A stretch of DNA of 64,000 nucleotides from a bacterium. GTDB taxonomy: Bacteria > UBP15 > UBA6099. The position numbers and the translations under genes are program-made. The notes under the pieces are model-generated. The model made no database searches. It saw only the letters and a list, made by a program, of their open reading frames with translations, and was not told the origin of the DNA. The stretch spans positions 1,173-65,172 of the forward strand of contig JBAYJY010000004.1 in NCBI GenBank assembly GCA_041664945.1, written 5' to 3'. Below are positions 15,934 to 32,578 of the stretch, one piece after another. Numbering within the stretch: position 1 is the stretch's first letter; every line of letters begins with the position of its first letter.

Positions 15934-16897
15934 CGGAAAAACATTCAGAATAATAGCGCCGCTGTCGAATCCGGACGAAGCGCGCACGCTGCCCGGCCTC
16001 GGCGCGGACGAATTTTACTTTTCCATTCAGCCGCCGGGCATGAACAGCGCGTTCAGCCGGCGCGAACTGCCGCGCGCCAATTTTCACAGTTTCGAGGACA
16101 TCGAACTTGCGGCGCAGATAGCCGCGAAACGCGGCGTCCGCCTTTTCGCCGCCGTCAATAAAACATATTACACAAACGACGAACTCGGCCCCGCGAAGAA
16201 GATTTTAGACCGCTGCCTCGATGCCGGCGCGGCGGGCCTTATCGTCGCCGACGCCGGCCTTCTGCGCCTATTGCGCAAAGGCAACTACGGCGCCCGCGCC
16301 GAAATCGCTCTCAGCACGGTCGCCGCGCCGACAAACGGCGACGCCGTCGAATTCTTCTCACGCCTCGGAGTCTCGAGGGTCATTCTGCCACGCACGGTCA
16401 GTCCGAAACAGGCGGCGCGCTTCGTCAGGAGATTCCCAAAGCTCAGGTTCGAGGCGCTGATCTTCAACTGGTATTGCGCGAACGTCGACGGCGTGTGCCG
16501 GTACCAGCACGACATATCGGACCCTGCGGCCCCGCCGGACCTTGTTCGCAACGGCTGCTGTTTCGACTATGAAGTCACTTGCCCGAACGGCGCGCCCGCT
16601 CCTGATTCCGTACGGCGCGGCTTAACAAACGCGCAGCGGCGATCCGAAACCGCCTGCGGCGTCTGCTCCATTTATGACTTCATGCAGGCCGGCGTGAGAG
16701 ACTTCAAGGTCGTCGGACGCCTGCTCGGTTACAAGGCGAAAGCGAACAGCGTTAAATTCCTCGACGGATGCCGCAAAATTTATCAGGAATCCGACAGCCG
16801 GGAGGGCTACATCCGCCTCTCGCAAAGATATTACGAACAATTCTTCGGAGCCGCTTGCTCCGGCGTCTGCTATCATCGGATACGAATGACTGATTAG
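15917..16897 (+). CDS. Peptidase U32-family protein (UbiU/RlhA/TrhP-type fold)
   Basis: U32 N-terminal pattern ...IIAPLSNPDEARTLPGLGADEFYFS...NFHSFEDIELAAQIAAKRGVRLFAAVNK...AGLIVADAGLLRLL. Cys cluster CANVDGVC (C-x6-C) plus downstream Cys residues. Overlaps the TPR gene by 17 nt. Confidence 0.7.
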   Translation: MTTKSDGKTFRIIAPLSNPDEARTLPGLGADEFYFSIQPPGMNSAFSRRELPRANFHSFEDIELAAQIAAKRGVRLFAAVNKTYYTNDELGPAKKILDRCLDAGAAGLIVADAGLLRLLRKGNYGARAEIALSTVAAPTNGDAVEFFSRLGVSRVILPRTVSPKQAARFVRRFPKLRFEALIFNWYCANVDGVCRYQHDISDPAAPPDLVRNGCCFDYEVTCPNGAPAPDSVRRGLTNAQRRSETACGVCSIYDFMQAGVRDFKVVGRLLGYKAKANSVKFLDGCRKIYQESDSREGYIRLSQRYYEQFFGAACSGVCYHRIRMTD

Positions 16898-16900
16898 GCG

Positions 16901-17701
16901 ATGAAAAAAGTAAACTGCAAAGAAATCACGGCTGCGGCCCCCGGCGGCGCGGCGCTCGAACGCGCTTTGAAATATGCCTCGCAAGGCGTCGAAACTGCCC
17001 TATTCGCGGACACGCCCGCCGGGATACTCTCCTGCCCCGCCGGAATCCGCCGCATATATTTCGGCTGCGAATTCGACGAACGGAATATCCCGTCGGCGCG
17101 AAAAGCGGCCGCTGCTATCGAGGCGAGCGCCGGGCGAAAGCTCAAGTTCACTCTCGCGACGCCGATTATGACGGACGCCGGAACGGCGCGGCTGAAGCGT
17201 CTGCTTCGGGCGCTGAGCGAATACGCGCCTTTCGAGGCGGTCGCAAACGATTTCGGCGCGATCGCTATAATCCGCGATGCCGGCCTGATTCCTGTCGCCG
17301 GACGGCTGCTGATCAAACAGAAAAGCGACCCGCGGCTGGCGGCGCTGAAATCACCGCGCCTCCGCAATTATTTTAAAAAATCAGCGGCTGACAACGCCGA
17401 GTTCGCCGCCCTGCTCCGCGACCTTGGTATCAAACGCGTCGAACTCGACAACCCGCTTTGCGGCCTTGCCCCGCCAGCCGGCTTCTCGGTTTCGCTTTAT
17501 TATCCTTTTGTTTTTATGACGCTTTCCATGCGCCAAACGGAATCCGAACACGACGGAGCTGTCTATTTCCTCAAAAACAAGGCTTTCCCGGTGGACATCA
17601 TTTTGTCCGGCGCCGCACAGTTCTATATGAATCAGGAACTGAAAGCCTTGAAAGCCGGAGGCGTCAACAGGCTGGTTATCCAGCCTTTGCCGCCCCGTTG
17701 A
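16901..17701 (+). CDS. U32-like protein (divergent second subunit?)
   Basis: Starts 3 nt after the previous stop. ...IRRIYFGCEFDERNIPSARK...KLKFTLATPIMTDAG...FEAVANDFGAIAIIRDAGL... resembles the U32 N-terminal barrel but lacks the C-x6-C motif. Confidence 0.45.
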   Translation: MKKVNCKEITAAAPGGAALERALKYASQGVETALFADTPAGILSCPAGIRRIYFGCEFDERNIPSARKAAAAIEASAGRKLKFTLATPIMTDAGTARLKRLLRALSEYAPFEAVANDFGAIAIIRDAGLIPVAGRLLIKQKSDPRLAALKSPRLRNYFKKSAADNAEFAALLRDLGIKRVELDNPLCGLAPPAGFSVSLYYPFVFMTLSMRQTESEHDGAVYFLKNKAFPVDIILSGAAQFYMNQELKALKAGGVNRLVIQPLPPR

Positions 17702-17862: not shown

Positions 17863-18201
17863 ATGAAAACCAAGAAAGATTTGGAAAGCGCCCAAAAAGG
17901 ATTCTATCCTAAAGCTAAGAAGGAGCTTAAGCTCTTTTTCAGCAGCGAAGAAGGCAAAATTACCCGGAAAGCCATCGTCAAAACATCCGTGATGACGGCC
18001 ATTGTCGGCATGATGGTTGAAGGCTCTCTCGTGCATGCCCAGCACACAAGCGGCAATTCTTATCTTCACTATAACTGTTCCAATCCTGTCGCCAACACCG
18101 GCTGCACCGGCACACACGCCTCTCACAGTTCACACGGCTCGCATGGCTCTCACGGCTCACATGGTTCGCACGGCTCGCACGGCTCGCACGGAAGCTGGTA
18201 A
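17863..18201 (+). CDS. His-Xaa-Ser repeat precursor-like peptide (HxsA-like), 112 aa
   Basis: SD GGGGAGAG lies 5 nt upstream of the ATG. Basic N-terminus, hydrophobic segment TSVMTAIVGMMVEGSLVHA, then ...NCSNPVANTGCTGT-HAS-HSS-(HGS)x7-W*. Confidence 0.8.
   Translation: MKTKKDLESAQKGFYPKAKKELKLFFSSEEGKITRKAIVKTSVMTAIVGMMVEGSLVHAQHTSGNSYLHYNCSNPVANTGCTGTHASHSSHGSHGSHGSHGSHGSHGSHGSW
18115..18195 (+). repeat. Nine in-frame His-Xaa-Ser codon triplets (peptide-level repeat)
   Basis: CAC GCC TCT / CAC AGT TCA / CAC GGC TCG / CAT GGC TCT / CAC GGC TCA / CAT GGT TCG / CAC GGC TCG x2 / CAC GGA AGC. Synonymous codons vary between units. Confidence 0.95.
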
Positions 18202-18250: not shown

Positions 18251-18811
18251 ATGGAAAAGCGGAATTTTTTCTTTAAGGTTGAGAACGACGCCTTACAACT
18301 CAGAATCCCCGGCAAAATTTATCCGTTGGAAGCCGCCCTCAGCGCGACATATTTTTTCATAGATGATTTTTACATCTTTCTCGCGCCCGACGGCCCCGCC
18401 GGCGTCATCGTCGAACTGAAGCCGAAGAAGAAAATGTCCAAGGCCAGACTCGACGCCGCCGCGGGCGAGTTCTTCAACTCGCTTCTCGCCGAAACCCTGC
18501 GTTTGAACATGAACGAAACGAACAAAAAGTTCAGGGAGAAGTTGCTCGAACAGGCCCTCGCGTCCGCGCTCAGCCCGGCGAAACCCTCCGATCCGGACGG
18601 CCCCCTCGGCCCATCTCCCGCCTGCGACGAAACGCTCGAACTGGAACTCGACGCGGAACTGAAACTCATCATCGAGCGCACGAAAGACGCGAGCTATACA
18701 GACGACCCGCTCGGCATCTGCGTTCCGTTCGGAACCGCCGCGCCCGCAAAAACCGCCGCGAAATCCGCGAAGCCGAAACCCGCCGCAAAGCGGGCTCCGC
18801 GCAGAAAATAA
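18251..18811 (+). CDS. Small accessory protein, HxsD-like N-terminal domain plus a Pro/Ala/Lys-rich tail
   Basis: 186 aa. ...KIYPLEAALSATYFFIDDFYIFL...AAGEFFNSLLAETLRLN... recalls the LLNDYxLRE-type motif of HxsD as I remember it. Paralogous to the next ORF. Confidence 0.5.
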   Translation: MEKRNFFFKVENDALQLRIPGKIYPLEAALSATYFFIDDFYIFLAPDGPAGVIVELKPKKKMSKARLDAAAGEFFNSLLAETLRLNMNETNKKFREKLLEQALASALSPAKPSDPDGPLGPSPACDETLELELDAELKLIIERTKDASYTDDPLGICVPFGTAAPAKTAAKSAKPKPAAKRAPRRK

Positions 18812-18854
18812 ATCGCCGCTATTCCCCCCGGCCACGCGCCGGCAAAGGTTGGCC

Positions 18855-19085
18855 ATGTCGACAAAAAGCGAATCCGGAACGGTTGAATACTCGTTCGACA
18901 AAAAAATTTACAAACCAGCGGCCGTGAAGAAAGCGGTCGAGGACTACTCCGGCGCCGCGCTCTTCGATGTCGCCGAAAATAAATCAGCCGTCCGCGTCTC
19001 GATCTCCGGCATTCCGTCCGCCGGGAACGCCGAACTCACCGGCGAGTTCCGCAATTACGTTCTCTATCTGAACAAGATTCTGTAG
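18855..19085 (+). CDS. Small accessory protein, second HxsD-like paralog (76 aa)
   Basis: ...KKIYKPAAVKKAVEDYSGAALFDV...LTGEFRNYVLYLNKIL aligns with the KIYP...A..A.Y.F... and GEFFN..L blocks of the preceding ORF. I prefer the ATG at 18855 over the TTG at 18849. Confidence 0.5.
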   Translation: MSTKSESGTVEYSFDKKIYKPAAVKKAVEDYSGAALFDVAENKSAVRVSISGIPSAGNAELTGEFRNYVLYLNKIL

Positions 19086-19096: not shown

Positions 19097-20542
19097 ATGC
19101 CCCGATCTAAAACAAAAATCGAATCCGCACGGCGCGGCTTCTTCAGGTTCCGCGAACTCGGCGACATGGTTGTCGTCACCAACGACGCCGGACAACACAT
19201 CACGCTCGATAAAGCGGACTTCGATCTCCTATCCGCCGGAAATATCGGCGAAAACAACAAGAACTATCTCGACCTCAAGGCGATGGGCTGCATTCACTCC
19301 GGCGACGGCGAACCCTCGCCCGTCACTGTCGAAAAATTCAAGCGCCGCAACATGTTCATCTATCAGGGGCCGCTCCTCTTCATTGTTATCCCCACCCTGC
19401 GCTGCAATATGAAATGCGCCTATTGCCACGCCAGCGCCTGCGGGCCGAAGGCTTACGATTACGATATGAGCATCGAGACCGCGAAACGCGTGGTGGACAC
19501 GATTTTCGAATCTCCGGGCATCAACTTCGGCATCGAATTTCAGGGCGGCGAGCCGATGCTTCACTGGGAAGCCGTGAAATTCACTTCCAACTACGCGATC
19601 GAACGCAACAAGATGCACAAACGGAATCTTCAGTTGACGATCGTCAGCAACCTGAGCCTCATGGACGACGAGAAGCTGGAGTTCCTGATTTCGCGCAAGA
19701 TCGGCGTCTGCACGTCGCTCGACGGCCCCGCTTTCGTTCACAACAAAAACCGCGGCGGCGGCCACGCCAGGCTGATCAAAAACATTAAAAACATCATGCG
19801 CCGCTACAAAGTCGAGTTCGACCGCTACACACCCGGCGCTCTCACTACCATAACCCGCCATTCGCTTCCCTTCCACAAAGAGATTGTCGACTCGTTCGTC
19901 GACCTCGGCATGGAAGGCATCCACCTGCGCCACTACAACCCGATCGGCTCCGCGCAGTCAGCCATCCCGGACATCGGCTACTCCCCCGAGGAGTTCCTCG
20001 ATTTCTACGCTAAGGCGCTCGACTACATTATCGACCTGAACAAACAGGGAACCCTGCTTATCGACCGCACCGCCTGGCTGTTCCTTCTGAAGATTCTCGG
20101 CGAGTTCGACCCGAACTTCATGGACCTTCGCTCCCCCTGCGGCGCCGGGATCGGGCAGATCGCCTTCAACTACGACGGCAGCGTTTACACTTGCGACGAG
20201 GGCCGCATGCTCGCCATGCAGGGCGACGAATCCTTCCTCATGGGCAATGTCCGCGAAAACAACTACGACGAATTAGTCGGCGCCGAGATCGTCAAACAAA
20301 CCTGCCTCGCTTCCATCCTCGACGGAATCCCGCGCTGCTGCGACTGCGCTTATAAGCCCTACTGCGGCGTCTGCCCGCTCCTCAACTATGTCGAGGAAGG
20401 CAGCCTCTTCGCCAAAATTCCGCAAAACAGGCGCCACAAGATCAATCAGGGCGTTCTCGATATTGTCTTCACTAAGCTACAGGACGAGTCCTCAAAAAAA
20501 GTCTTCATCAACTGGCTGGAACGGGGGATCAATGTCGTTTGA
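19097..20542 (+). CDS. Radical SAM / SPASM-domain maturase (HxsB-like), 481 aa
   Basis: AGGAG RBS. About 100-aa N-terminal extension, then CNMKCAYC (CxxxCxxC) and GGEPML. The C-terminal auxiliary-cluster region reads CGAGIGQIAFNYDGSVYTCDEG...CCDCAYKPYCGVCP (CxxCx5Cx2C). Confidence 0.85.
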   Translation: MPRSKTKIESARRGFFRFRELGDMVVVTNDAGQHITLDKADFDLLSAGNIGENNKNYLDLKAMGCIHSGDGEPSPVTVEKFKRRNMFIYQGPLLFIVIPTLRCNMKCAYCHASACGPKAYDYDMSIETAKRVVDTIFESPGINFGIEFQGGEPMLHWEAVKFTSNYAIERNKMHKRNLQLTIVSNLSLMDDEKLEFLISRKIGVCTSLDGPAFVHNKNRGGGHARLIKNIKNIMRRYKVEFDRYTPGALTTITRHSLPFHKEIVDSFVDLGMEGIHLRHYNPIGSAQSAIPDIGYSPEEFLDFYAKALDYIIDLNKQGTLLIDRTAWLFLLKILGEFDPNFMDLRSPCGAGIGQIAFNYDGSVYTCDEGRMLAMQGDESFLMGNVRENNYDELVGAEIVKQTCLASILDGIPRCCDCAYKPYCGVCPLLNYVEEGSLFAKIPQNRRHKINQGVLDIVFTKLQDESSKKVFINWLERGINVV

Positions 20543-21453
20543 GCCTTCTCGACACCCAAGCCAAAATCATAGATGTTAAAATAACATTCCGATGTAACAA
20601 CTACTGCCTGTTCTGCGCCGCCGGCGACAAGCGGATGATTTACGCCGACCTGCCGCCGGACTCTATCCGCGACGCGCTCGCCGCCGCCGCCGGGGAACGC
20701 GACTCCGTTCTTTTCACAGGCGGCGAACCGACAATGCGCGATGACCTCGCCGGTCTCGTCCGCTTCGCCCGCGAATCCTGCGGCTACAAAAACGTCATCA
20801 TTCAAACCAACGGCCGCCGCTTCGCTTACCGCGACTATGCAGTGTCGATCGCCGATGCCGGAGCCCGCCAGTTCATGGTCTCCATCCACGGCCATACCGG
20901 AGCCCTTCACGATTTCCTGACCGGACAAAAAGACAGTTTCGCCGAAACCGTCATCGGCATTAAAAACCTGCTCGCGCTCGGACTGACCGTAGCCACAAAC
21001 ACCGTTATCACTAAATCGAACTATCGAAACCTGCCCGACATCGCGAGAATGCTCTGCTCGCTCGGCGTCGGACAGATGCAGTTTGCTTTTCCGCACATCG
21101 ACGGCAACGCCAAAGCGAACGCCTCTCGCGTCGCGCCGCCCATGACTCTCGCCGTCCCCTATCTGTTCCGCGCGCTCGACATCGCCGCCGCCTCGAAACG
21201 CGTCGCCCTCACCGAGGGATTCCCGCTCTGCATGATCCCCGGCCGCGAGCAAAACGCCGTCGAATCTCTTCACAAAAAAATTAAAGTCATAGACGAAGGC
21301 GGCAGCATCGACGACTTCGACGGCCACCGCGCGACACGGCTCAAAACAAAAGGTCCCGCCTGCCCGCCCTGCCGGCATTTCAAACTCTGCGAAGGCCCCT
21401 GGGCGGACTATCCAGAACTGTTCGGCTGGAAAGAGTTCAAACCGGTAAAATGA
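20539..21453 (+). CDS. Radical SAM enzyme, short paralog 1 (304 aa)
   Basis: CNNYCLFC, FTGGEPTM, SIHGHTGALHD, and a C-terminal CPPCRHFKLC (CxxCx5C). The TTG start overlaps the upstream stop (TTGA). Confidence 0.8.
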   Translation: MSLLDTQAKIIDVKITFRCNNYCLFCAAGDKRMIYADLPPDSIRDALAAAAGERDSVLFTGGEPTMRDDLAGLVRFARESCGYKNVIIQTNGRRFAYRDYAVSIADAGARQFMVSIHGHTGALHDFLTGQKDSFAETVIGIKNLLALGLTVATNTVITKSNYRNLPDIARMLCSLGVGQMQFAFPHIDGNAKANASRVAPPMTLAVPYLFRALDIAAASKRVALTEGFPLCMIPGREQNAVESLHKKIKVIDEGGSIDDFDGHRATRLKTKGPACPPCRHFKLCEGPWADYPELFGWKEFKPVK

Positions 21454-22388
21454 AAAAGTTCGACTTCTACATATCCTACCTATGCGCGAGCAAGTGCGCG
21501 TTCTGCTGCGTACTCGATAAAATAAACTGGTTCAGGGACAACAAAGTCCCGCCTCATATTCCGTTTCAGCAGGTGAAGGACGTTCTTGATGAAAAACACG
21601 CCGACGGTTACGGGCACGTCACGCTCACCGGCGGCGAACCCACCCTGCACCCCCGATTCGCTGAGATTCTCGCTTACGCAAAAAAGCTACGCATGCGCAC
21701 AAGCGTCAATTCCAACATGATGATGTTCGCCGACGAGCGCTTCTGCCGCGCGGCGATGCCGTACGTAGACGAGATTGTCGCCTCCGTCCACGGCCACACC
21801 GCCGAATTGCACAACTCAATCACCGGAACGAAGGACGGTTTCGAGCGGTTCGTCAAAGGCATGGAAAACGTCGTCCGCATGAAACCCGATTTATACCTGA
21901 TCACGGACACGGTGCTGGTTACGCCGAACATCGTCGACATTTCCGGGATCGTGGATTTTCTGCTCTCGATCAAAGGACTGCGGCACATTCTTTTTTCAAA
22001 TGTTAATCTGCCGCCGGACAAACTCGACGGCCGCGAATATCTCGTGCCGACTCTCCCGCAAATCGAAGAGATTCTCCCGGAGATCGTCGAGCGCATAGCT
22101 TTCAAATCGGACAAAATTTTGCGCTTCTACGGCATCCCGTTCTGCGCGCTCAAGGACTATCACGCATATTCGAGCGACCTGTATTTCGAGCCGAAAATGG
22201 TTTGGGAGCGCGTCCGCCGGGAAGACGACATGGTCGACCGCGAGTACGCCGCGCCGAAACCGAACATGGCGAAAAAGAAGACCAAAAAGTGCGCCGGATG
22301 CCTCTACGAAAAAACCTGCGGCGGCTTCTTCAACAGTTACTACACGCTCTTCGGCGACAAACATATTAAGCCGATTCTGAAAAAATAG
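21450..22388 (+). CDS. Radical SAM enzyme, short paralog 2 (312 aa)
   Basis: CASKCAFC, LTGGEPTL, SVHGHTAELHN, and a C-terminal CAGCLYEKTC (CxxCx5C). ATGA overlap with the upstream gene. Confidence 0.8.
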   Translation: MKKFDFYISYLCASKCAFCCVLDKINWFRDNKVPPHIPFQQVKDVLDEKHADGYGHVTLTGGEPTLHPRFAEILAYAKKLRMRTSVNSNMMMFADERFCRAAMPYVDEIVASVHGHTAELHNSITGTKDGFERFVKGMENVVRMKPDLYLITDTVLVTPNIVDISGIVDFLLSIKGLRHILFSNVNLPPDKLDGREYLVPTLPQIEEILPEIVERIAFKSDKILRFYGIPFCALKDYHAYSSDLYFEPKMVWERVRREDDMVDREYAAPKPNMAKKKTKKCAGCLYEKTCGGFFNSYYTLFGDKHIKPILKK

Positions 22389-22409
22389 TCTAATCCGCCC
22401 ATACGAAAA

Positions 22410-24047
22410 ATGGATTGGAGTCAAAACATAGTTATTATGCTCGACGGGAAAACATTACAAAAAGAAACGGCGGCGTCGGAAAAGCATCTCTGGGTCCGAC
22501 TGACAAAGCTGTGCAACAACAACTGCATTTTCTGTCTCGATAAAGAGAGTCAGGACGGAACCTCAATTCCGACTCGCGAGATTTACAAGCAGCTTGAAAA
22601 CGGGCGCGCGGACGGCGCTTCGCGCCTCATCCTTTCCGGCGGCGAAGCCACTCTACACCCGGAATTCTTCAGCATCGTCCGGCGCGGAAAATCGCTCGGT
22701 TTCCGCCGCGTTCAAGTCGTCTCCAACGGCAGAATGTTCGCTTACCCGGACTTTCTCGCGAACGCCGCAGCAGCAGGACTCGACGAAATTACTTTCTCAA
22801 TGCACGGACACACTCCCGAACTGCACGACGCCCAGACACGCGCCCCCGGCAGCTTCAGTCAGGCGCTCGCCGGCCTCACTAACGCGCTCAACTCCGGCCG
22901 CTTCATCGTCAACGTCGATATCGTCATTAACCGCTTCAACTACAATGTCATAGACAAAATTATGGACTATTTTATCGGCCTCGGCGTCCATGAGTTCGAC
23001 CTCCTTCACGTCACTCCTTACGGCGAGGCGTGGAATCATAAGAATAAAGTGTTCTATGATATCGCCGACGGAATAAAATTTCTTAACAAGGCGTTCGCCT
23101 ACTCGCGGCGCGATGATCTCTTTGTCTGGACCAACCGCTTCCCGCCCTCTTACCTCGCCGCGTTTCCCGAACTGATCCAGAACCCTCTGAAGATCAAAGA
23201 CGAGGTTCGCGGACGCATGGATTTGTTCGACGCGTTTCTGAAAGGAGACGCGGAACTGCCCTGCCGCGGCAAACGCTGCGATTTCTGTTTTCTGCGCGGC
23301 TTGTGCGACGATCTCTTCCGGTCGAAAGAAGCCGCCGACTCCGGCTCCACAGCCGCTCTACGCGTTCCGGCGTCCGGCCTGAGCGCCGCGAAACGGTTCA
23401 TCAACAACTCGCTTCGCCTGCTCATAGTTCACGGCTCCTCCGTCGACGATATGAATCTGAGCCCCTCCGCTTTTCCCGCCGGCGCAGCGCTCCGCTTCGA
23501 GCTTGCGGACTATTCAGGTTTCACTTCGTTCAGGAACCGCCTGCCGAACAAAAACGTTACCGCATGCGCGCCCGACGCAAAACAGCTTGAGGCTGTCCTC
23601 TCAGCAACCGGCGTTACGCCTGCGCTCGAACTGAACGCTCGCGGCGCGCCGCTTATCAAAATCGAATTCAACTTCGTTAAAAAACACGGCATCCGGCTAT
23701 ATAACAAAAACAGGGCGTCGCTCGCGGAAAGCGCTGAGAACGACGTCGAGCTTCGCGGGTTCTTCAGGGGCGCGCTCGGGAAAAGTCTGAAAACCGAAAA
23801 CATTCCGGCATGCGTCGCGGACGCCTCGCAGGGCCTCCAGACATGGTTCCTCGATTTTGAAGCGCTCGACCGGCGCGGCGGCATCGACATGCAGAAATTA
23901 GCCGATTCATTCGTCATGAACCGCTATTACATTTTTCCGTTCGAATGCGGCTCGTGCGCGAAAAAGAACCTCTGTCCCGGCATTCACGTGAATTACTGCC
24001 GCGCGTTCGGTTTCAAACCGAAACCATTCGCGGCGGCGAAAAAATAA
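22410..24047 (+). CDS. Radical SAM enzyme, paralog 3 with a ~250-aa C-terminal extension (545 aa)
   Basis: CNNNCIFC, LSGGEATL, SMHGHTPELHD. A mid-protein CRGKRCDFCFLRGLC motif and a terminal CGSCAKKNLC (CxxCx5C). Confidence 0.8.
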   Translation: MDWSQNIVIMLDGKTLQKETAASEKHLWVRLTKLCNNNCIFCLDKESQDGTSIPTREIYKQLENGRADGASRLILSGGEATLHPEFFSIVRRGKSLGFRRVQVVSNGRMFAYPDFLANAAAAGLDEITFSMHGHTPELHDAQTRAPGSFSQALAGLTNALNSGRFIVNVDIVINRFNYNVIDKIMDYFIGLGVHEFDLLHVTPYGEAWNHKNKVFYDIADGIKFLNKAFAYSRRDDLFVWTNRFPPSYLAAFPELIQNPLKIKDEVRGRMDLFDAFLKGDAELPCRGKRCDFCFLRGLCDDLFRSKEAADSGSTAALRVPASGLSAAKRFINNSLRLLIVHGSSVDDMNLSPSAFPAGAALRFELADYSGFTSFRNRLPNKNVTACAPDAKQLEAVLSATGVTPALELNARGAPLIKIEFNFVKKHGIRLYNKNRASLAESAENDVELRGFFRGALGKSLKTENIPACVADASQGLQTWFLDFEALDRRGGIDMQKLADSFVMNRYYIFPFECGSCAKKNLCPGIHVNYCRAFGFKPKPFAAAKK

Positions 24048-24059
24048 AACGGACTGATT

Positions 24060-24992
24060 ATGGCAAACCTCGGATACATGCAGGTCACGCGGCGCTGCAA
24101 CCAGAAGTGCCGGTTCTGCTCCAACCCGGAGCGGGAAGCTGACATGCCGTTGAAAAAAGGGCTCGCCTACATTGACGATTTGAAAGAAAAAAGATTCCTG
24201 TGCGTGCTGTTCACCGGCGGCGAACCGACTCTCTCGGAGAACCTTCCGCGTTTCCTCGCCCACTGCCGCGAGACGGATTTTATGAGCAAGCTTTGCACGA
24301 ACGGCCAGAAACTCGCCGACCCCGATTACCTCAAGTCGCTTATCGACAACGGCCTCACGCACGTCTGCGTCTCGCTGCACTCGCATCTGCCGGAGGTTCA
24401 GGCCGCCCTCACCCAAAACCCGGACTCGGCGGCAAACATCTTCAAGGCGCTCGATAACCTTTCACGACATCCGGATGTCACTCTCGACATCCTGACCACC
24501 ATCAACAAATACAACTCCGGCCACCTGAGCGAAACGACAAAATTCCTGCTCGGCCGCTTTCCCTCTTTCTCGCATGTAACGTGGAACAATCTCGATCCGC
24601 GCATGAACCGCACGGCGGAGAACCCGGACACGATCCCGCGCCTTTCCGATTTCCATCTCGAACTCGCTCTCGCCATGGACCTGCTCGCCGCGAACGGCAA
24701 ACCGTTTCAGGTCGAGCGCGTTCCGCTCTGCTACATGGCCGAACACGCGAGTCGCTCGACGGAAACGCGGCGCATCGTCAAACGCGAGGAGCGCCTGACA
24801 TACTTTCTCGACGAGCGCGGCTGCCTCCGCTGGAAAGACTGGGAACACGACAAAGCGGACTGCTGCGCCATCTGCTCGCTGAACGAAATCTGCGCCGGCC
24901 TCTATCAGATGAACGCTTATTATTTCTCGAATGAACTTTTCCCGGTGTTCGTGCGCAAAGAGCCGATAATTGATAAAATTATCAACGAATAG
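24060..24992 (+). CDS. Radical SAM enzyme, short paralog 4 (310 aa)
   Basis: CNQKCRFC, FTGGEPTL, SLHSHLPEVQ, and a C-terminal CCAICSLNEIC (CxxCx5C). Confidence 0.8.
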   Translation: MANLGYMQVTRRCNQKCRFCSNPEREADMPLKKGLAYIDDLKEKRFLCVLFTGGEPTLSENLPRFLAHCRETDFMSKLCTNGQKLADPDYLKSLIDNGLTHVCVSLHSHLPEVQAALTQNPDSAANIFKALDNLSRHPDVTLDILTTINKYNSGHLSETTKFLLGRFPSFSHVTWNNLDPRMNRTAENPDTIPRLSDFHLELALAMDLLAANGKPFQVERVPLCYMAEHASRSTETRRIVKREERLTYFLDERGCLRWKDWEHDKADCCAICSLNEICAGLYQMNAYYFSNELFPVFVRKEPIIDKIINE

Positions 24993-25043: not shown

Positions 25044-26990
25044 ATGAAGAAGCGCCTCCTTCTCGTCTCATTCGTCGGCGGTTTCCGATCGGACCGGAAG
25101 CTACACCGCGCCATGGCGCCTTTCACTCTCGTAAATTTCCTGAAAACTGATCCGCAGGTCGCCCTTGATACAGACGCCGAGATCGAAATATTCGACGCCG
25201 CCGATAACGATGAAGTCGTCCTCAGAAACATCCGCCGGCGCAAACCAGACGTCGTCGGTTTCACTTGTTTTTACTGGAGCGTGGAGAAGTGCCTGAACGT
25301 CGCGAGAAAGCTGAAACTCGTGTCGCCGGAAACGATCACGATCGCCGGCGGCCCGCAGATCACGGAACTTTTATTTGCTAAAACGCCATGCCTGGACTTC
25401 GCGGCGCGCGGCGAAGGAGAGATCGTCCTGCGCGAGTTCATGAAGGCCCTCACAACCGGCGGCGATCCGGCAAAGGTTCGCGGCCTTATGTATCGCAAAG
25501 ACGGCAAAGCGTTCACGGACTCCGGGCAGTCATTCGTCGAAAATCTCGATGATCTTCCGCCCCTGTCCGAATGCGTTCCGCTCCGCGAAGCCATTCTTTC
25601 GTCGTTCGAACGCAAGTTTCCTCTCGAAACGTCGCGCGGATGCCCGAACAAATGTTCCTACTGCAACTGGAACATGCACAGCGTCCGTTTCCATTCAATT
25701 ATAAACTTCGAGCGCAACCTCCGCTTCCTCATGGACAGTTTGCCGCCCCGCAACAAAACAATTATTGACTTCACGGACTCCTATCTCGACATTAACATCA
25801 AGCGGCTGAAGGATGTTTTGAAGTTGCTGATTAAATACAGGAAACCTGGCGTCGAGTTCCGCGGCTATTTCCTTTTCAACAATCTGGACGCCGAATCGAT
25901 CGATCTGCTCGACAGGGCGAATTTCCGCCGCCTGTCACTCGGCCTTCAGGCTCTCAATCCGGATGTCAGGCAGACGCTCAACAGGAACTGGTTCGATGAC
26001 GAGTCCCTTGAAAGAGCGATCTCGTTGCAGGATCGCTTTCAAATTATGATTGACCTGCTTCTCGGCGTTCCCGGAGACAATAGCGGGAATTTCAAAGATA
26101 CCATAGCGCGCCTGTGGCGGCGCGGCGCGAACGACATCACGGCAAGCGTTCTGCGCGTGTTGCCCGGAACCCGGCTCTACGATAACAGCGACGCCGGCTT
26201 TGTCTTCGACGCCGACCCGCCTCACATGGTTATTTCCTCGCCGTCATTCTCCTTCGCCGACATCCACGAAAGCGGCCGCTTCGCAATGAACTTCACCGTG
26301 ATCAATAATTTGCTGAAGCGCGCCGATATAGAACTTATCGAAAAAGAGTTCCGCGCCGATTTTTTTGATATCTGCGAAGATATTCATATCGCCATTCCCC
26401 AATGGAACGGCTTCATAACTAAGATCGGCGAAGGCGCTTCCGGCGTCGACGCGAATCCTGACATCATTCTGCTGCTGCCGGAATACCTTGCGCGTTTGTC
26501 GCCCGGCAACCCGGCGGCGCCGCTCATCGAATCTATCGTCAAACTCAGGCGCTCGGAATTCCTGCTCGCCGAATCGCTCGAAAAAACGCTGAACGAGTCT
26601 CCGCGAAACCTGCCTGTCCCGGTTTCCGGTCTCGATTCGGCAAAAGCGCGAGTCCCCCGATTCGAGAAAATCACGCTGCGCCACAATGTCTTCGGCCTAC
26701 CCGGCTCAAAACAATGGGGCGCTCCGTTCGAGGAGCCGAAAACATTTTTTATCGTCAACAATTACGCGACTCATGGATATGAAATACTCGAACCGAAAAT
26801 GCCGGAAGTCGCGGAAATTCTGTTCAAACTGCTCGCGAAACCAGCAACCTCGAAAGCCATCGCGGAATTTGCCGCCGAATCAATAAAAGGCGTGCGGCGC
26901 GAATCGGTCATCAGCTTTATAAAAATGCTTTGCGAAAAATCGGCGCTGGTCTATAGGGAATCGGCGGCGCCTCGGGACAATATTGGATGA
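25044..26990 (+). CDS. Class B (cobalamin-binding domain) radical SAM enzyme 1 (648 aa)
   Basis: N-terminal B12-binding-like Rossmann region (...PDVVGFTCFYWSVEKCLNVARKLK...ITIAGGPQ...ARGEGE), then ETSRGCPNKCSYC. Confidence 0.8.
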   Translation: MKKRLLLVSFVGGFRSDRKLHRAMAPFTLVNFLKTDPQVALDTDAEIEIFDAADNDEVVLRNIRRRKPDVVGFTCFYWSVEKCLNVARKLKLVSPETITIAGGPQITELLFAKTPCLDFAARGEGEIVLREFMKALTTGGDPAKVRGLMYRKDGKAFTDSGQSFVENLDDLPPLSECVPLREAILSSFERKFPLETSRGCPNKCSYCNWNMHSVRFHSIINFERNLRFLMDSLPPRNKTIIDFTDSYLDINIKRLKDVLKLLIKYRKPGVEFRGYFLFNNLDAESIDLLDRANFRRLSLGLQALNPDVRQTLNRNWFDDESLERAISLQDRFQIMIDLLLGVPGDNSGNFKDTIARLWRRGANDITASVLRVLPGTRLYDNSDAGFVFDADPPHMVISSPSFSFADIHESGRFAMNFTVINNLLKRADIELIEKEFRADFFDICEDIHIAIPQWNGFITKIGEGASGVDANPDIILLLPEYLARLSPGNPAAPLIESIVKLRRSEFLLAESLEKTLNESPRNLPVPVSGLDSAKARVPRFEKITLRHNVFGLPGSKQWGAPFEEPKTFFIVNNYATHGYEILEPKMPEVAEILFKLLAKPATSKAIAEFAAESIKGVRRESVISFIKMLCEKSALVYRESAAPRDNIG

Positions 26991-28486
26991 AACAGAAGCG
27001 AAAAATAGTATTTTGCGGCGTTGAAGAGCCGCTGGACGTTTCCCCGGAGCGTTACGGGCTCGCCCTCTCCTATCCGTTTGAATACCTTGCCGCGTTCGCG
27101 CTTCAAAACAAGGAGATCGCGGGTAACTTTGAATTCGAAACGCTGTTGGCAAACCGCAATGCATTCGATGAAGACATAATTTTCGACATCGCCGCCCGCA
27201 ACCCGCGCATGGCGGGCTTCTCCTGCTCAGTTAAGAACATAGGCCGCTGCCTGAGAATCGCGCGGCAGTTGAAATTGGCCTGTCCGGAAACCCTGATAAT
27301 TCTCGGCGGCCCTGAAATGTACGCCGCGGAGAGGCTGATGCAAAAACACAGCTTCATCGACCTCGCGGTTTTCGGGGAGGGAGAAGAAACTTTTTCCGAA
27401 ACGCTATTGAGCGTGCTCGCCGGCGAAACCGGAAAAATACCCGGCCTGTTCAGGCGCGCCGGCGGCAAAATCGTCTCCGGCGGGCCGCGCAAACCCATAG
27501 AGCGACTCGACTCCATTCCTTCCTTCTTCACGCCCGAAAAAGCCGCCGCCGTTTCCGGCATAGCGCTCTACGAAACCGCGCGCGGATGCCCCAACAAATG
27601 CTCCTATTGCCTCTGGTCTCCCTATAGCAAACGCTATTTCTCAATGAAACGCGTTAAAAGGGAAATCGGGCTCCTCCTCGAAAACGACGATATCGAACGA
27701 ATCTGGTTCATAGATTCCGATTTCGACTCCGACGTCGAACGCTCAAAGGAAATTCTGCGATTTGTCAAAAAGAAACGCAAGCCCGGCCTTGAACTGTCCG
27801 CCTTCCTCAACTTTCACACGCCGGACGAAGAACTCCTCGCTCTCGTCGCCGAACTCTTTCACGAGGTGCCGGTCGGCATACAGACGGTAAAGCGGAACCT
27901 TCAGAAAAACATCGGCCGGGACTGGTTCGACATCGCTGAATTCGAAAAAAATCTCGGCAAAATCCTGAGCTTCATTCCGGCTCACAAACTTTATATCGAT
28001 CTTATGTACGGGCTGCCGGGCGAAAAACCCGGCGACTTCGCCGACACGCTTATGTGGTGCCTCGCGCGCGGACTGACTCACATTAATTTCTTCCGCCTCT
28101 CGGTCTTCCCCGGCGCTCCGCTCGAAAAAATCGCCCGGAAATCCGGCCTGATCTTCGATCCCGAACCGCCTCATCTCGTTTACTCTTCAGACACGTTCTC
28201 TTTCGACGATTTGATCGCGATCGAAACTGAGATTGTTAACTACAAGGTTTTAGAGACGCTTCTGCCCCCTGAGTCGCTTTCGAAACTCGCGGCGTCAGAC
28301 GCTTTCACGGACATTCTCCGCAACCTGAGCCGCTGCGACCCGGACTTCGAAACGCGCTTCGTCTGCATCAACGAGTCGAATATATCCGATATCGACATTC
28401 GCAAACTCGCCGCGCCCGTGACGGAGTTCCTAAGAAAATACAAAATTGACAAAGAGATATTGGACTCCGCGCGTTCCCGGCGATAA
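26987..28486 (+). CDS. Class B (cobalamin-binding domain) radical SAM enzyme 2 (499 aa)
   Basis: ...PRMAGFSCSVKNIGRCLRIARQLK...IILGGPE...VFGEGE, then ETARGCPNKCSYC. ATGA overlap with the upstream paralog. Confidence 0.8.
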   Translation: MKQKRKIVFCGVEEPLDVSPERYGLALSYPFEYLAAFALQNKEIAGNFEFETLLANRNAFDEDIIFDIAARNPRMAGFSCSVKNIGRCLRIARQLKLACPETLIILGGPEMYAAERLMQKHSFIDLAVFGEGEETFSETLLSVLAGETGKIPGLFRRAGGKIVSGGPRKPIERLDSIPSFFTPEKAAAVSGIALYETARGCPNKCSYCLWSPYSKRYFSMKRVKREIGLLLENDDIERIWFIDSDFDSDVERSKEILRFVKKKRKPGLELSAFLNFHTPDEELLALVAELFHEVPVGIQTVKRNLQKNIGRDWFDIAEFEKNLGKILSFIPAHKLYIDLMYGLPGEKPGDFADTLMWCLARGLTHINFFRLSVFPGAPLEKIARKSGLIFDPEPPHLVYSSDTFSFDDLIAIETEIVNYKVLETLLPPESLSKLAASDAFTDILRNLSRCDPDFETRFVCINESNISDIDIRKLAAPVTEFLRKYKIDKEILDSARSRR

Positions 28487-28836: not shown

Positions 28837-30321
28837 ATGGAGAGTTACGAACAGGTTCCCGCGGTAATACACGTTCACTCGTCAATGAGCGGCGGGAAAT
28901 ACACGCACTCGGAGATAGCGCGAATGGCGCAGGCTGGCGGCGCGCGCGCCGTTTTGTTTTCAGACAAGGCGGAGCGGTCGTTTACATACGGAATTCCGCC
29001 CTTCAGGGGCGTCGCGCGAGTCACGATGAAACGGCCTTCGATTCCGATGGCGAAGGTCGGTGAATACCTGAAAACAATAGACGCGGCGCAGGCGGAAAAC
29101 CCGGACGTCATCCTCGTTCCCGGATTCGAAGTCGCTCCTTACTACCGGTGGGAGGGCGACCCGCGCGCCGGCAACCTCACTCTCTACAAAACCGAATGCG
29201 AGATGCTCGTTTACGGCCTGAAAAAAGAGTCCGACTGGCAACACATGCCGTTTATTTCGAATCCGAACTCCGCGCGGTTCAGCGCCGGTTCGTTTTTTCA
29301 GTTCATTTTGTGCGCGGCACTGCTCGCGGCCGGATGCGCGGCGTTCTTTGTCCGCGTCAAACACAAATTCAAAGTCGGCCTCTGGCGCAAACAGCAGATA
29401 AATTACTACTCTCATCCCTTGCGCCCGTTCGCGATTCTGGCGGTTTTGGCGGCGCTGCTTGTCGGCTTAATGTGCTATCCGTTTCGCCGTTACGCTTACA
29501 GCCAGTATCAGCCGCCCCGCCCCACGAACGCCCCCTATCGCCTGCTCGCGGACTACGTCAGCGCTCATGGCGGACTCACCGTATGGGCTCATCCCGAATC
29601 AAAAGATGTTCGCCGTTTTAAGGCGGCCCAGATATTGCCGGCCTTGTTCGCGCGGCTTCCCTTCATCCCGAAAGATTTCTCAGCCGAAGTCCGCAACACA
29701 GGCTGCGTCGAGGAAATGGAAAACACTGCCGCCTTCACCGCTTTCTCCGCGATTTATGAAGGCTACCGCGCTGTTGGCTGCGTCGGCGGCAGTTGGGATA
29801 AAGCCCTTTGCGGATACGCTTCCGGACGCGGCCGCTCCGCTCCGTTCTGGGCCGCCGGAGAGCGCGATTTCTACGGTCTCGCCGACACGTTCCCTATAGC
29901 GAATTCGCAGACCGTTTTCCTTGTCCGCGAGTTCAGCCGCGCGGGGATCCTTGAAGCGATGCGCGCGGGCAGAATGTACGCCGCCGAGGTCGACAACGGC
30001 AAAGTTCTGCGCCTTTACGACTTCAAAATAGATTCGGGCGGCTCGGCGACTCCGGCAGGCGGAACCGTTGTTTTCTCAGGCCCCGCGCGAGTCTCGGGAA
30101 CGATCGGCTCAAAGCCCATGCGAGGCATTAAGATCCGCGCCAAAATCATCAAAAACGGGAAAGTCGCCCGCACTTTTTTCGGCTCCACGCCTCTTAAATT
30201 CGATTTTTCTTTCCCGGACGCTCCCAAAGACGGCATGGATTATTACCGCGTTGTCGCCGATAACTATAGTTTCGCTTTATTAATAAGCAATCCGATTTTT
30301 GTCGACGCTCGCAAAAAATGA
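28837..30321 (+). CDS. PHP-like metal-dependent phosphoesterase domain protein with internal TM segments
   Basis: The N-terminal VIHVHSSMSGGKYTHSEIARMAQAGGARAVLFSD resembles the PHP HxH motif. Two hydrophobic helices lie mid-protein. WAHPES may be a further His motif. Confidence 0.5.
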   Translation: MESYEQVPAVIHVHSSMSGGKYTHSEIARMAQAGGARAVLFSDKAERSFTYGIPPFRGVARVTMKRPSIPMAKVGEYLKTIDAAQAENPDVILVPGFEVAPYYRWEGDPRAGNLTLYKTECEMLVYGLKKESDWQHMPFISNPNSARFSAGSFFQFILCAALLAAGCAAFFVRVKHKFKVGLWRKQQINYYSHPLRPFAILAVLAALLVGLMCYPFRRYAYSQYQPPRPTNAPYRLLADYVSAHGGLTVWAHPESKDVRRFKAAQILPALFARLPFIPKDFSAEVRNTGCVEEMENTAAFTAFSAIYEGYRAVGCVGGSWDKALCGYASGRGRSAPFWAAGERDFYGLADTFPIANSQTVFLVREFSRAGILEAMRAGRMYAAEVDNGKVLRLYDFKIDSGGSATPAGGTVVFSGPARVSGTIGSKPMRGIKIRAKIIKNGKVARTFFGSTPLKFDFSFPDAPKDGMDYYRVVADNYSFALLISNPIFVDARKK

Positions 30322-31888: not shown

Positions 31889-32013
31889 CGAATAATTCGG
31901 TTGTCATGAAACGGATTATTAAAGTCGTTTCTGCATCTTGTTACTATTCTGCGCTATCAGATTTAGAAGTCAATTTTCTGCTTTGAATCAAGTAACTTCA
32001 TCATCGTATTTTT

Positions 32014-32499: not shown

Positions 32500-32578
32500 C
32501 TCTTATAAGCGCATTCATATGCATAAATGCTACTATCAATAGCTAGGGGATTCGTGGGACAACTTACTAATTACACCT

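What the first reader, a model, noticed from the sequence alone, without database searches (positions are those of the whole stretch)
20539..24992. Four consecutive paralogous short rSAM enzymes sharing GGEPT, S-x-HGHT-x-ELH and a terminal CxxCx5C mini-auxiliary-cluster motif
The four ORFs (304, 312, 545 and 310 aa) share these motifs:
- CxxxCxxC;
- (F/L)(T/S)GGE(P/A)T(M/L);
- S(I/V/M/L)H(G/S)H(T/L)xx(L/V)(H/Q);
- a C-terminal CxxCx5C (CPPCRHFKLC, CAGCLYEKTC, CGSCAKKNLC, CAICSLNEIC).
The last motif looks like the final part of the SPASM CX2CX5CX3C signature, i.e. a truncated twitch-like auxiliary cluster. A tandem four-fold duplication of one maturase type in a single operon is unusual. It suggests division of labour across different residues or different chemistry on the nine repeats. 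The third copy carries an extra mid-protein Cys cluster (CRGKRCDFCFLRGLC) and an uncharacterised ~250-aa C-terminal extension.
Basis: partly seen in the sequence, partly recalled or inferred. Interest (0 to 1): 0.7.

Follow-up and report, generated by a model that had tools for sequence, protein, structure and literature searches.

The report
Four HxsC-like radical SAM enzymes
Four neighbouring genes encode old, distinct relatives of the radical SAM enzyme HxsC, each with a conserved four-cysteine site for a probable second iron-sulfur cluster, inside an enlarged His-Xaa-Ser peptide-maturation cluster whose relatives occur in hundreds of uncultured bacteria and have never been studied.

Summary
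The four ORFs (304, 312, 545 and 310 aa) and every quoted motif are present.

They lie in a His-Xaa-Ser (HXS) operon:
- an HxsA4-type precursor ending in nine HxS repeats plus Trp
- HxsD and an HxsD-like protein
- HxsB
- the four enzymes
- two B12-radical SAM enzymes

All four resemble HxsC4 and HxsC most closely among NCBIfam models, but score far below both cut-offs. Profile comparisons rank them closer to each other than to canonical HxsC, and closer to HxsC than to HxsB.

They are not a recent duplication. Each has its own orthologues elsewhere, in the same order. Most comparable loci carry four or more HxsC-like genes, and natural fusions of two to four such domains exist.

The C-terminal motif is a complete four-Cys site: P-x-C, about 44 residues, then CxxCx5C. 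It is invariant in the homologues sampled for each subfamily and is present in canonical HxsC. The other three motifs are generic radical SAM core motifs.

Copy 3 carries an extra invariant Cx4Cx2Cx5C, an unassigned beta/alpha insert and then the normal C-terminal module.

Most likely the four perform different reactions on the repeat peptide. The chemistry is unknown. I rate this a new variant of a known system.

The parts
13333..15933 (+). TPR-repeat protein (866 aa), first gene of the co-directional block
   Evidence: Multiple TPR Pfam families. An 865-aa gene holds the same position in the syntenic locus L001. Whether it belongs to the system is inferred from synteny only.
15917..16897 (+). 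Peptidase_U32-family protein (326 aa), an accessory gene
   Evidence: PF01136, 80 bits against a cut-off of 22.4. A U32 gene plus a homologue of the next gene recur in the related locus L028.
16901..17701 (+). 266-aa protein with no family match, partner of the U32 gene
   Evidence: No Pfam hit. Homologues in L028 and L088. No BLASTP similarity to the U32 protein.
17863..18201 (+). HxsA4-type precursor (112 aa): conserved leader FFSSEEGKITRK, a hydrophobic segment, then HASHSS(HGS)7-W
   Evidence: NF038313 HxsA4, 70 bits against a cut-off of 55. Related loci share the leader motif and the ...HGSW end.
18251..18811 (+). HxsD (186 aa; HxsD domain at residues 22-106 plus an Ala/Pro/Lys-rich tail)
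   Evidence: TIGR03976, 51.3 bits against a cut-off of 50.
18849..19085 (+). HxsD-like protein (78 aa)
   Evidence: NF038315, 57.5 bits against a cut-off of 41.
19097..20542 (+). HxsB, radical SAM/SPASM maturase (481 aa)
   Evidence: TIGR03978, 471 bits against a cut-off of 370. Pfam Radical_SAM, with a weak SPASM match below its cut-off.
20539..21453 (+). Copy 1 (304 aa): HxsC-like radical SAM enzyme and the positional equivalent of HxsC (4-nt overlap with hxsB). Cluster Cys 19/23/26; second site Cys 231/275/278/284.
   Evidence: HxsC4 158 bits and HxsC 108 bits, both below cut-off. Seven Cys invariant in 115 homologues. AlphaFold2 model pLDDT 94.8. Nearest solved folds are BlsE and SkfB.
21450..22388 (+). 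Copy 2 (312 aa): HxsC-like, the rarest subfamily. Cys 12/16/19 and Cys 232/281/284/290.
   Evidence: HxsC4 89 bits. Orthologues found only in L001, L003 and L010. The four C-terminal Cys are 100% conserved in 62 related sequences.
22410..24047 (+). Copy 3 (545 aa): HxsC-like core, extra Cys motif, insert and C-terminal module
   Evidence: HxsC4 106 bits and HxsC 94 bits. The sampled family of 87 sequences (listed hits about 37-59% identical) has 11 invariant Cys. Model pLDDT 92.5.
23262..23306 (+). Copy 3 residues 285-299: Cx4Cx2Cx5C, an extra four-Cys site
   Evidence: C285, C290, C293 and C299 are invariant in 87 homologues. The region is helical in the model, with no hairpin.
23322..23774 (+). 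Copy 3 residues 305-455: beta/alpha insert of unassigned fold
   Evidence: Alternating strands and helices between residues 316 and 431. No Pfam hit. No profile similarity to radical SAM cores, HxsD, B12 enzymes or U32. PDB fold matches cover only the core.
23775..24044 (+). Copy 3 residues 456-545: C-terminal module (P-x-C468, then C513xxC516x5C522, then a G..FG..P tail) matching the C-terminus of copies 1, 2 and 4
   Evidence: hhalign places copy 3 residues 456-541 on copy 1 residues 219-303 (E 5.5e-4, probability 30%). The Cys spacing is identical and the Cys are invariant.
24060..24992 (+). Copy 4 (310 aa): HxsC-like. Cys 13/17/20 and Cys 224/269/272/278. Has SLHSH in place of SxHGH.
   Evidence: HxsC 85 bits and HxsC4 68 bits. 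Seven Cys invariant in 52 homologues. Relatives in at least 498 species-representative genomes.
25044..26990 (+). B12-binding radical SAM enzyme (648 aa)
   Evidence: PF02310 plus PF04055. Nearest NCBIfam model is KedN5 C-methyltransferase, below cut-off. Orthologue in L001.
26987..28486 (+). Second B12-binding radical SAM enzyme (499 aa), 4-nt overlap with the previous gene
   Evidence: PF02310 plus PF04055. Orthologue in L001.

Best explanation
The four genes encode four old, functionally distinct HxsC-type radical SAM enzymes. Together with HxsB and two B12-radical SAM enzymes they mature the adjacent HxsA4 precursor, which has a leader, a hydrophobic segment, nine tandem His-Xaa-Ser units and a terminal Trp.

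Each enzyme keeps a complete SAM-cleaving site (CxxxCxxC with an aromatic residue before the last Cys, plus GGE). Each also keeps a four-Cys site (P-x-C, about 44 residues, CxxCx5C) laid out as Cys, beta-hairpin, helix, Cys triad. This most likely holds a fully ligated auxiliary [4Fe-4S] cluster used for electron transfer or substrate activation, as in twitch and SPASM enzymes. Copy 3 probably holds a third cluster at Cx4Cx2Cx5C.

None of the four has an N-terminal peptide-binding domain. Substrate is therefore probably delivered in trans by HxsD or the HxsD-like protein, as in the E. coli HxsC-HxsD complex. Copy 1 is the HxsC equivalent coupled to HxsB. Copies 2-4 add further, different reactions on the same repeats: division of labour by chemistry, not by repeat position.

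Shown here: homology, orthology, motif conservation, synteny and domain fusions. Inferred: cluster binding, the substrate, and reaction order and type.
For: System identity:
- HxsA4, HxsD, the HxsD-like protein and HxsB all pass curated cut-offs, and the genes are tightly packed on one strand.
- HxsC4 is the best NCBIfam match for copies 1-3 and HxsC for copy 4.
- Profile scores rank copies 1-4 with each other (224-548), then canonical HxsC (124-180), then HxsB (70-108), then the B12 enzyme.

Distinct, maintained functions:
- Each copy has orthologues in other contigs in the same order. L001 and L010 carry copies 1-2-3-4; L003 carries 1-2-4.
- The sampled homologues of copies 1, 3 and 4 are mostly 37-78% identical to them, and each set has its own invariant residues.

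Working together:
- Of 28 genome loci with full flanks, 20 carry a copy-1 type gene, 18 a copy-3 type gene and 14 both; 22 carry four or more HxsC-like genes.
- Natural fusion proteins join two to four such domains: copy1-copy3 type 13 proteins, copy3-copy1 type 20, plus triple- and quadruple-domain forms.

Second cluster site:
- The four Cys are invariant in every subfamily and in canonical HxsC.
- The copy 1 model (pLDDT 94.8) shows a hairpin at 247-257 and a helix at 260-268 between C231 and C275.
- Its best solved fold matches are the twitch enzymes BlsE and SkfB.

Peptide substrate:
- (HxS)n-W precursors with the conserved leader FLxSEEGKIxxK lie beside these genes in several phyla.
- In E. 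coli, HxsB and HxsC are both required for HxsA processing and defence, a +8 Da change maps to an SHRSS motif, and HxsC binds HxsD (PMC13128918).

Chemistry rather than position:
- Repeat number ranges from 3 to 29 with no relation to the number of HxsC-like genes (rho 0.08, p 0.73, n 22).
Against: - No biochemical data exist for any member of these four subfamilies.
- None of the four reaches the curated cut-off of HxsC (267.9 bits) or HxsC4 (500 bits).
Cluster binding rests on conservation and topology.
- No SPASM or twitch sequence model hits the C-terminal module.
- Only 14 of the 28 full-flank loci contain an HxS-repeat ORF within 10 kb and only 13 contain HxsB. The common Myxococcota cassette has neither nearby, so the enzymes may not always act on an HxsA peptide.
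- Many loci are cut by contig ends, which weakens the counts and the correlation test.
Confidence: 0.6

Rival explanations
1. The cassette of copy-1, copy-3 and copy-4 type enzymes (with a fourth HxsC-like enzyme) is a self-contained module whose real substrate is not the HxS-repeat peptide. The substrate could be another protein, a lipid, a sugar or a cofactor precursor. In this window the module is merely recruited next to an HxsA/HxsB/HxsD core.
For: - Half of the full-flank loci lack an HxS-repeat ORF and HxsB within 10 kb.
- The frequent Myxococcota cassette (HxsC-like gene, copy-1 type, copy-3 type, copy-4 type) has neither. In L031 it sits next to a collagen-like repeat protein.
- Copy-3 type proteins in Polyangium spumosum pair with a radical SAM-methyltransferase fusion and no HxsB.
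- The closest solved relative, BlsE, acts on a small molecule.
Against: - In the window, L001 and L010 the four genes run on directly from hxsB with overlapping or near-overlapping junctions.
- Precursors could lie more than 10 kb away or be missed by the three-repeat filter.
- Their nearest named relatives are peptide- or protein-modifying HxsC enzymes.
Confidence: 0.2
2. The four enzymes carry out the same reaction but divide the substrate by position, each serving a subset of the nine repeats or a particular residue within the repeat array.
For: The substrate is highly repetitive and all four share the same overall architecture.
Against: - Repeat number varies from 3 to 29 while the enzyme complement does not follow it (rho 0.08, p 0.73).
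- The four subfamilies are only 25-29% identical to copy 1. They differ in conserved residues around the active-site strands, for example SLHSH in copy 4 against SxHGH, and copy 3 has an extra cluster motif and an extra domain.
- The repeats are almost identical (HGS seven times), which leaves little on which to base positional recognition.
Confidence: 0.1
3. Only one or two of the four are catalysts. The others are non-catalytic scaffolds or chaperones kept for complex assembly.
For: Natural multi-domain fusions show that these modules act in physical proximity. Some fused proteins have fewer CxxxCxxC motifs than assigned domains, for example P0365 and P0386, each with three domains and two motifs.
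Against: All four window proteins keep CxxxCxxC, the aromatic residue before the last Cys, the GGE motif and the four-Cys site. These are invariant or nearly invariant in the sampled homologues of each subfamily.
Confidence: 0.07

Closest known systems
HxsC (TIGR03977) of the HxsD-HxsB-HxsC-HxsA antiphage system of E. coli, Klebsiella and Aeromonas (PMC13128918)
   Same: - Radical SAM core.
- Encoded directly after HxsB (copy 1).
- Same four-Cys C-terminal site (P-x-C then CxxCx5C), seen in the Aeromonas and Klebsiella proteins.
- Accompanied by HxsD and an HxS-repeat protein.
- One of the two best NCBIfam matches.
   Different: - Scores of 53-108 bits against a cut-off of 267.9.
- Canonical HxsC has an N-terminal domain of about 100 aa that all four lack, and it has no S-x-H-G-H motif.
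[quoted passage not shown]
HxsC4 (NCBIfam NF038332, 'rare' radical SAM protein HxsC4) with HxsA4 (NF038313) and the HxsD-like protein (NF038315)
   Same: - The precursor and the HxsD-like protein pass their HxsA4 and HxsD-like cut-offs.
- HxsC4 is the top hit for copies 1-3.
- The copy 1 and copy 2 C-terminal modules align to the last 37 positions of the HxsC4 profile.
   Different: - Best score is 158 bits against a cut-off of 500.
- None of 57 copy-1 family members scores better than E = 4e-56.
- No description of a multi-paralogue arrangement was found, and no HxsC4 sequence was available for direct comparison.
Twitch-domain radical SAM enzymes (BlsE 7vob, SkfB 6efn, MoaA, BtrN)
   Same: - Best fold matches of the copy 1 model (E 2e-13 and 3e-13, TM 0.62).
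- Best PDB sequence match is BlsE (E 2e-23 over the core).
- A single C-terminal cluster site following a hairpin and a helix.
   Different: - Sequence matches cover only core residues 12-176.
- The C-terminal module has no PDB or twitch-model sequence match.
- The Cys spacing CxxCx5C is that of the SPASM second-cluster triad, not the spacing I recall for BtrN or MoaA (my own knowledge, not tested here).
SPASM peptide maturases (anSME, SuiB, PqqE, HxsB itself)
   Same: CxxCx5C is the core of the SPASM CX2CX5CX3C signature. They act on peptides and use auxiliary clusters.
   Different: - No Pfam or NCBIfam SPASM hit.
- Only four, not seven, conserved Cys.
- No N-terminal peptide-recognition domain.
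- Profile score to HxsB is only 70-108, over the core alone.

Membership tests
Radical SAM superfamily (PF04055) | Pfam gathering score, CxxxCxxC cluster loop and GGE motif | tested here: met
   PF04055 at 65.7-74.4 bits against a cut-off of 29.5 for all four. The motifs are in the sequence.
HxsC (TIGR03977, equivalog) | Whole-protein score of at least 267.9 bits | tested here: not met
   107.9, 53.5, 93.6 and 85.4 bits for copies 1-4.
HxsC (TIGR03977, equivalog) | Encoded directly downstream of HxsB in a cluster with HxsD and an HxS-repeat protein | tested here: met
   Copy 1 overlaps the hxsB stop by 4 nt. HxsA4, HxsD and HxsB all pass their cut-offs. Copies 2-4 follow in series.
HxsC (TIGR03977, equivalog) | N-terminal domain of about 100 aa before the radical SAM core, as in the two canonical HxsC proteins examined (Aeromonas, Klebsiella); my working criterion, not a published definition | tested here: not met
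   The canonical proteins have about 100 extra N-terminal residues. In copies 1-4 the cluster loop begins at residues 12-35.
HxsC (TIGR03977, equivalog) | C-terminal P-x-C then CxxCx5C four-Cys site | tested here: met
   Aligned in all four and in Aeromonas and Klebsiella HxsC. Copy 3 lacks the P-x-C next to its core but has the full module at its C-terminus.
HxsC4 (NF038332, exception-type model) | Whole-protein score of at least 500 bits | tested here: not met
   158.3, 89.4, 105.7 and 68.3 bits. The best among 57 copy-1 relatives is E = 4e-56.
HXS system (HxsA, HxsB, HxsC, HxsD) | HxsA-type repeat protein, HxsB and HxsD present | tested here: met
   HxsA4 70 bits against 55; HxsB 471 against 370; HxsD 51.3 against 50; HxsD-like protein 57.5 against 41.
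HXS system (HxsA, HxsB, HxsC, HxsD) | [quoted passage not shown] | tested here: not met
   The order here is A, D, D-like, B, four HxsC-like genes, two B12-radical SAM genes. The canonical order is from PMC13128918.
HXS system (HxsA, HxsB, HxsC, HxsD) | Antiphage activity by blocking DNA entry; periplasmic, peptidoglycan-anchored effector | not testable with these tools
   No peptidoglycan-binding domain was found in the 112-aa precursor. PADLOC 2023 gives only generic weak viperin matches.
SPASM domain (PF13186) | Seven-Cys CX9-15GX4C ... CX2CX5CX3C ... C signature binding two auxiliary clusters | tested here: not met
   No SPASM hit for any of the four, whole proteins or isolated modules. 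Only four conserved Cys.
Twitch-domain radical SAM enzymes | Shortened C-terminal domain (hairpin plus helix) binding one auxiliary cluster | tested here: inconclusive
   Topology in the model is Cys, hairpin 247-257, helix 260-268, Cys triad. Best fold hits are BlsE and SkfB at TM 0.62. The N_Twi_rSAM model gives about 31 bits against a cut-off of 170 for copies 2 and 4. Cluster binding was not measurable.

The most novel reading that the evidence does not exclude
The HxsC-like enzymes of the copy-1, copy-3 and copy-4 types, together with a fourth such enzyme, form a conserved multi-enzyme radical SAM machine. In some organisms it is fused into one polypeptide of up to four domains. It converts poly(His-Gly-Ser)-Trp peptides into a new class of heavily cross-linked or methylated imidazole-rich product. 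Its chemistry would go beyond the single +8 Da change seen in E. coli HxsA, and its role in Myxococcota, Elusimicrobia, Omnitrophota and candidate-phyla-radiation bacteria may differ from the proteobacterial defence function: an envelope-associated phage barrier, a metal-binding peptide or a redox-active peptide.
Probability: 0.3. Interest if true: 0.75.

Novelty: new variant of a known kind. Interest (0 to 1): 0.52.

Why it matters
The HXS system was shown in 2026 to block phage DNA entry, but what HxsC does chemically is still unknown. That study describes essentially one architecture, confined to Pseudomonadota.

This locus shows a much larger, unstudied branch:
- Short HxsC-like enzymes occur as sets of three to eleven per locus.
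- Relatives are found in at least 498 species-level genomes from several phyla, all metagenome-assembled.
- They are linked to (HGS)n-W precursors with a conserved leader.

The branch offers compact enzymes of about 300 aa with a clear four-Cys second site, a three-cluster variant (copy 3), and natural fusions that say which modules work together. All of these are useful entry points for working out HxsC chemistry and for finding new peptide modifications.

Tried and rejected
- Recent tandem duplication: rejected. Between-copy scores are 58-97 bits against 304-646 bits to orthologues elsewhere.
- Copy 3 insert as a degenerate second radical SAM core, an HxsD-like adaptor, or a B12- or U32-like domain: no profile similarity (E 0.077 or worse), no Pfam hit, and no PDB fold match beyond the core.
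- C-terminal module as a SPASM or twitch domain by sequence: no such model matches. Only HxsC4 (29 bits) and a faint HxsC hit appear, and nothing in PDB sequences.
- Defence-system assignment through PADLOC: only generic weak viperin-type radical SAM matches.
- U32 protein and the 266-aa neighbour as a UbiU/UbiV-like paralogous pair: no similarity.
- Measuring Cys-Cys distances in the models: coordinates are not exposed to the scripting tool.
- Literature search for multi-HxsC clusters, HxsA4, HxsC4 or HGS-repeat peptides: nothing beyond the E. coli HXS paper and a passing mention in PMC9062424.
- Taxonomic placement of the window: the record is only 'MAG: bacterium'.

Full report
**What is there**

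The window carries a run of co-directional, tightly packed genes on the + strand:
- TPR protein, 13333-15933
- Peptidase_U32 protein, 15917-16897
- 266-aa protein with no family match, 16901-17701
- 112-aa precursor, 17863-18201
- HxsD, 18251-18811
- HxsD-like protein, 18849-19085
- HxsB, 19097-20542
- the four ORFs of the finding: copy 1 (20539-21453, 304 aa), copy 2 (21450-22388, 312 aa), copy 3 (22410-24047, 545 aa) and copy 4 (24060-24992, 310 aa)
- two B12-binding radical SAM enzymes, 25044-26990 and 26987-28486

Junctions among the radical SAM genes are 4-nt overlaps or gaps of 12-51 nt.

The precursor ends HASHSSHGSHGSHGSHGSHGSHGSHGSW, which is nine tandem His-Xaa-Ser units plus Trp. 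It passes the NCBIfam HxsA4 cut-off (70 bits against 55). HxsD (51.3 against 50), the HxsD-like protein (57.5 against 41) and HxsB (471 against 370) also pass. This is therefore a His-Xaa-Ser (HXS) system of the HxsA4 flavour.

**Check of the observation**

All quoted motifs are present at the stated places. Identity to copy 1 is 25-29%, and BLASTP scores between the copies are 58-97 bits. Profile-profile E-values run from 4e-30 to 4e-81 over 265-294 columns, so the resemblance is far beyond chance.

Three of the four shared motifs are generic radical SAM core elements:
- CxxxCxxC is the cluster loop.
- GGE(P/A)T is the GGE motif.
- S-x-H-G aligns with the SLDG strand-4 motif of BlsE, and the following H-D aligns with the T-H-D of BlsE.

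Only the C-terminal module is specific to this clade.

**The C-terminal motif is a complete four-Cys site**

- In 115 homologues of copy 1, C19, C23 and C26 are invariant, and so are C231, C275, C278 and C284.
- In 52 homologues of copy 4, the invariant Cys are C13, C17, C20 and C224, C269, C272, C278.
- In 62 relatives of copy 2, C232, C281, C284 and C290 are 100% conserved.

The same P-x-C then CxxCx5C arrangement is present in canonical HxsC from an Aeromonas plasmid and a Klebsiella plasmid. It is therefore a signature of the HxsC clade, not of these four alone.

The isolated module matches only the end of the HxsC4 profile (29 bits) and, faintly, HxsC. It matches no SPASM or twitch model and no PDB sequence.

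The AlphaFold2 model of copy 1 (pLDDT 94.8) places a beta-hairpin (247-257) and a helix (260-268) between C231 and the Cys triad. Its best solved fold matches are the twitch enzymes BlsE and SkfB at TM 0.62. A single, fully ligated auxiliary [4Fe-4S] cluster is the most likely reading.

**Copy 3**

In 87 homologues, 11 Cys are invariant: 35/39/42, 285/290/293/299 and 468/513/516/522. The last 85 residues align to the C-terminus of copy 1. The statistics are weak (E 5.5e-4, probability 30%), but the Cys spacing is identical and the G..FG..P tail is similar. In the model (pLDDT 92.5) this stretch repeats the order Cys, short strands, helix, Cys triad, whereas the 285-299 motif lies among helices.

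A full-length profile alignment instead places the 285-299 motif opposite the CxxCx5C of copy 1. The safest statement is that copy 3 carries the Cys motif twice and probably binds three clusters.

Residues 305-455 form a beta/alpha domain. It has no detectable relative by Pfam, by profile comparison or by fold search.

**Are they one family, and how old is the split?**

HxsC4 is the best NCBIfam match for copies 1-3 and HxsC for copy 4, and the other model ranks second or third. All scores are far below the cut-offs: at most 158 bits against 500, and at most 108 against 267.9.

Profile scores give this order:
- among the four copies: 224-548
- to canonical HxsC: 124-180
- to HxsB: 70-108, core only
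- to the B12 enzyme: 49 or less

They are nevertheless not recent duplicates. Each has its own orthologues at 304-646 bits in other contigs, in the same order:
- L001 has the same A, D, D-like, B, 1-2-3-4, B12, B12 layout.
- L010 has A, D, B, 1-2-3-4.
- L003 has B, 1-2-4.

Copies 1, 3 and 4 have many database homologues; the best 120 listed for each are mostly 37-78% identical. Copy 2 belongs to a rare subfamily.

**How common is the arrangement?**

A scan of species-representative genomes with the copy 4 profile found at least 498 genomes with a relative. All 80 loci kept come from uncultured organisms, nearly all labelled as metagenome-assembled genomes: Myxococcota, Elusimicrobia, Omnitrophota, candidate-phyla-radiation bacteria, Spirochaetes and others.

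Among the 28 loci with at least 8 kb on both sides:
- 25 carry three or more HxsC-like genes, 22 carry four or more, and the maximum is 11
- 20 have a copy-1 type gene and 18 a copy-3 type gene
- 13 have HxsB
- 14 have an (HxS)n ORF

The precursors share a leader (consensus about K-I-K-K-x-L-x-x-F-L-x-S-E-E-G-K-I-T-R-K), then a hydrophobic segment, and most end in ...HGSW.

Natural fusion proteins join two to four HxsC-like domains. This is independent evidence that the modules act together.

**Mechanism**

The only experimental anchor is the E. coli HXS study (PMC13128918):
- HxsB and HxsC are both needed for HxsA processing and for defence.
- A +8 Da change (+C, -4H) maps to an SHRSS motif.
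- HxsC binds HxsD.
- 99.8% of described systems have four genes, and 99.7% are in Pseudomonadota.

By analogy, copy 1 is the HxsC equivalent. It is the copy translationally coupled to HxsB and has the highest HxsC4 and HxsC scores. Copies 2-4 most likely add different reactions on the same repeats.

All four keep every catalytic motif. None has the N-terminal domain of about 100 aa found in canonical HxsC, so delivery by HxsD or the HxsD-like protein in trans is plausible.

Repeat number (3-29) shows no relation to the number of HxsC-like genes (rho 0.08, p 0.73, n 22). This argues against one enzyme per repeat.

The main uncertainty is that half of the related cassettes have no HxS precursor or HxsB within 10 kb. 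A substrate other than the HxS-repeat peptide cannot be excluded for the cassette in general.

**Novelty**

NCBIfam already holds HxsA4, HxsC4 and HxsD-like models, so curators have seen a fourth flavour. None of the four proteins, and none of 57 relatives of copy 1, reaches the HxsC4 cut-off. I found no paper describing multi-HxsC clusters. I therefore rate it a new variant of a known kind. It is real, widespread and uncharacterised, but not categorically new.

Noticed in passing
window 15917-17701; L028: A Peptidase_U32 gene and an unassigned 266-aa gene sit just upstream of the precursor and recur together in a Saccharibacteria locus (L028). The precursor's (GSH)n repeat is formally a Gly-X-Y repeat and gives a weak Pfam Collagen hit (18.9 bits, below cut-off). 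Some U32 proteins are annotated as collagenases and others as oxygen-independent hydroxylases (my own knowledge).
   Followed up: partly
L003 12952-16935: In a 3.17-Mb metagenome contig, the HxsB-like gene and the copy 1, 2 and 4 orthologues are followed by a NifH/ArsA-like ATPase and two nitrogenase-component-like (Oxidored_nitro) genes, then more radical SAM genes.
   Followed up: no
proteins P0365-P0510, e.g. P0129 (891 aa), P0368 (1070 aa), P0379 (1318 aa): Single polypeptides combine two to four HxsC-like radical SAM domains, for example copy1-copy3 type, copy3-copy1 type and triple- or quadruple-domain forms. A few carry an HxsB-like N-terminal piece.
   Followed up: partly
L031 2228-3865 and 6556-10936: In a Myxococcales MAG, a four-gene HxsC-like cassette (a 365-aa HxsC-like gene, then copy-1, copy-3 and copy-4 types) has no HxS precursor or HxsB within 10 kb. 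It lies near a 545-aa collagen-like GPQGPKGDTGA-repeat protein.
   Followed up: no
L013 15177-16482; L065 6986-9864: Some related loci carry three tandem precursor genes. In L065 the precursors are about 275 aa, rich in His, Asn, Ser and Thr, and end HASW or HSSW.
   Followed up: no
L008 8229-11737 (Polyangium spumosum, GCA_009649845.1): A copy-3 type protein (578 aa) in this Polyangium spumosum assembly is paired with a 604-aa radical SAM-methyltransferase fusion and two small ORFs, with no HxsB. If a culture of the strain is available, this organism could be a route to experiments.
   Followed up: no
window 32000-33300: A low-GC stretch (0.377 against about 0.55-0.57 in most of the rest of the window) holds two AT-rich ORFs on the - strand (161 and 123 aa) that look like membrane proteins. 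It is possibly a recent insertion.
   Followed up: no
window 28837-30321: The 494-aa ORF after the second B12-radical SAM gene has no Pfam hit. It contains an IHVHS motif near its N-terminus and hydrophobic segments. No homologue was found in the related loci examined, so its link to the cluster is unclear.
   Followed up: partly
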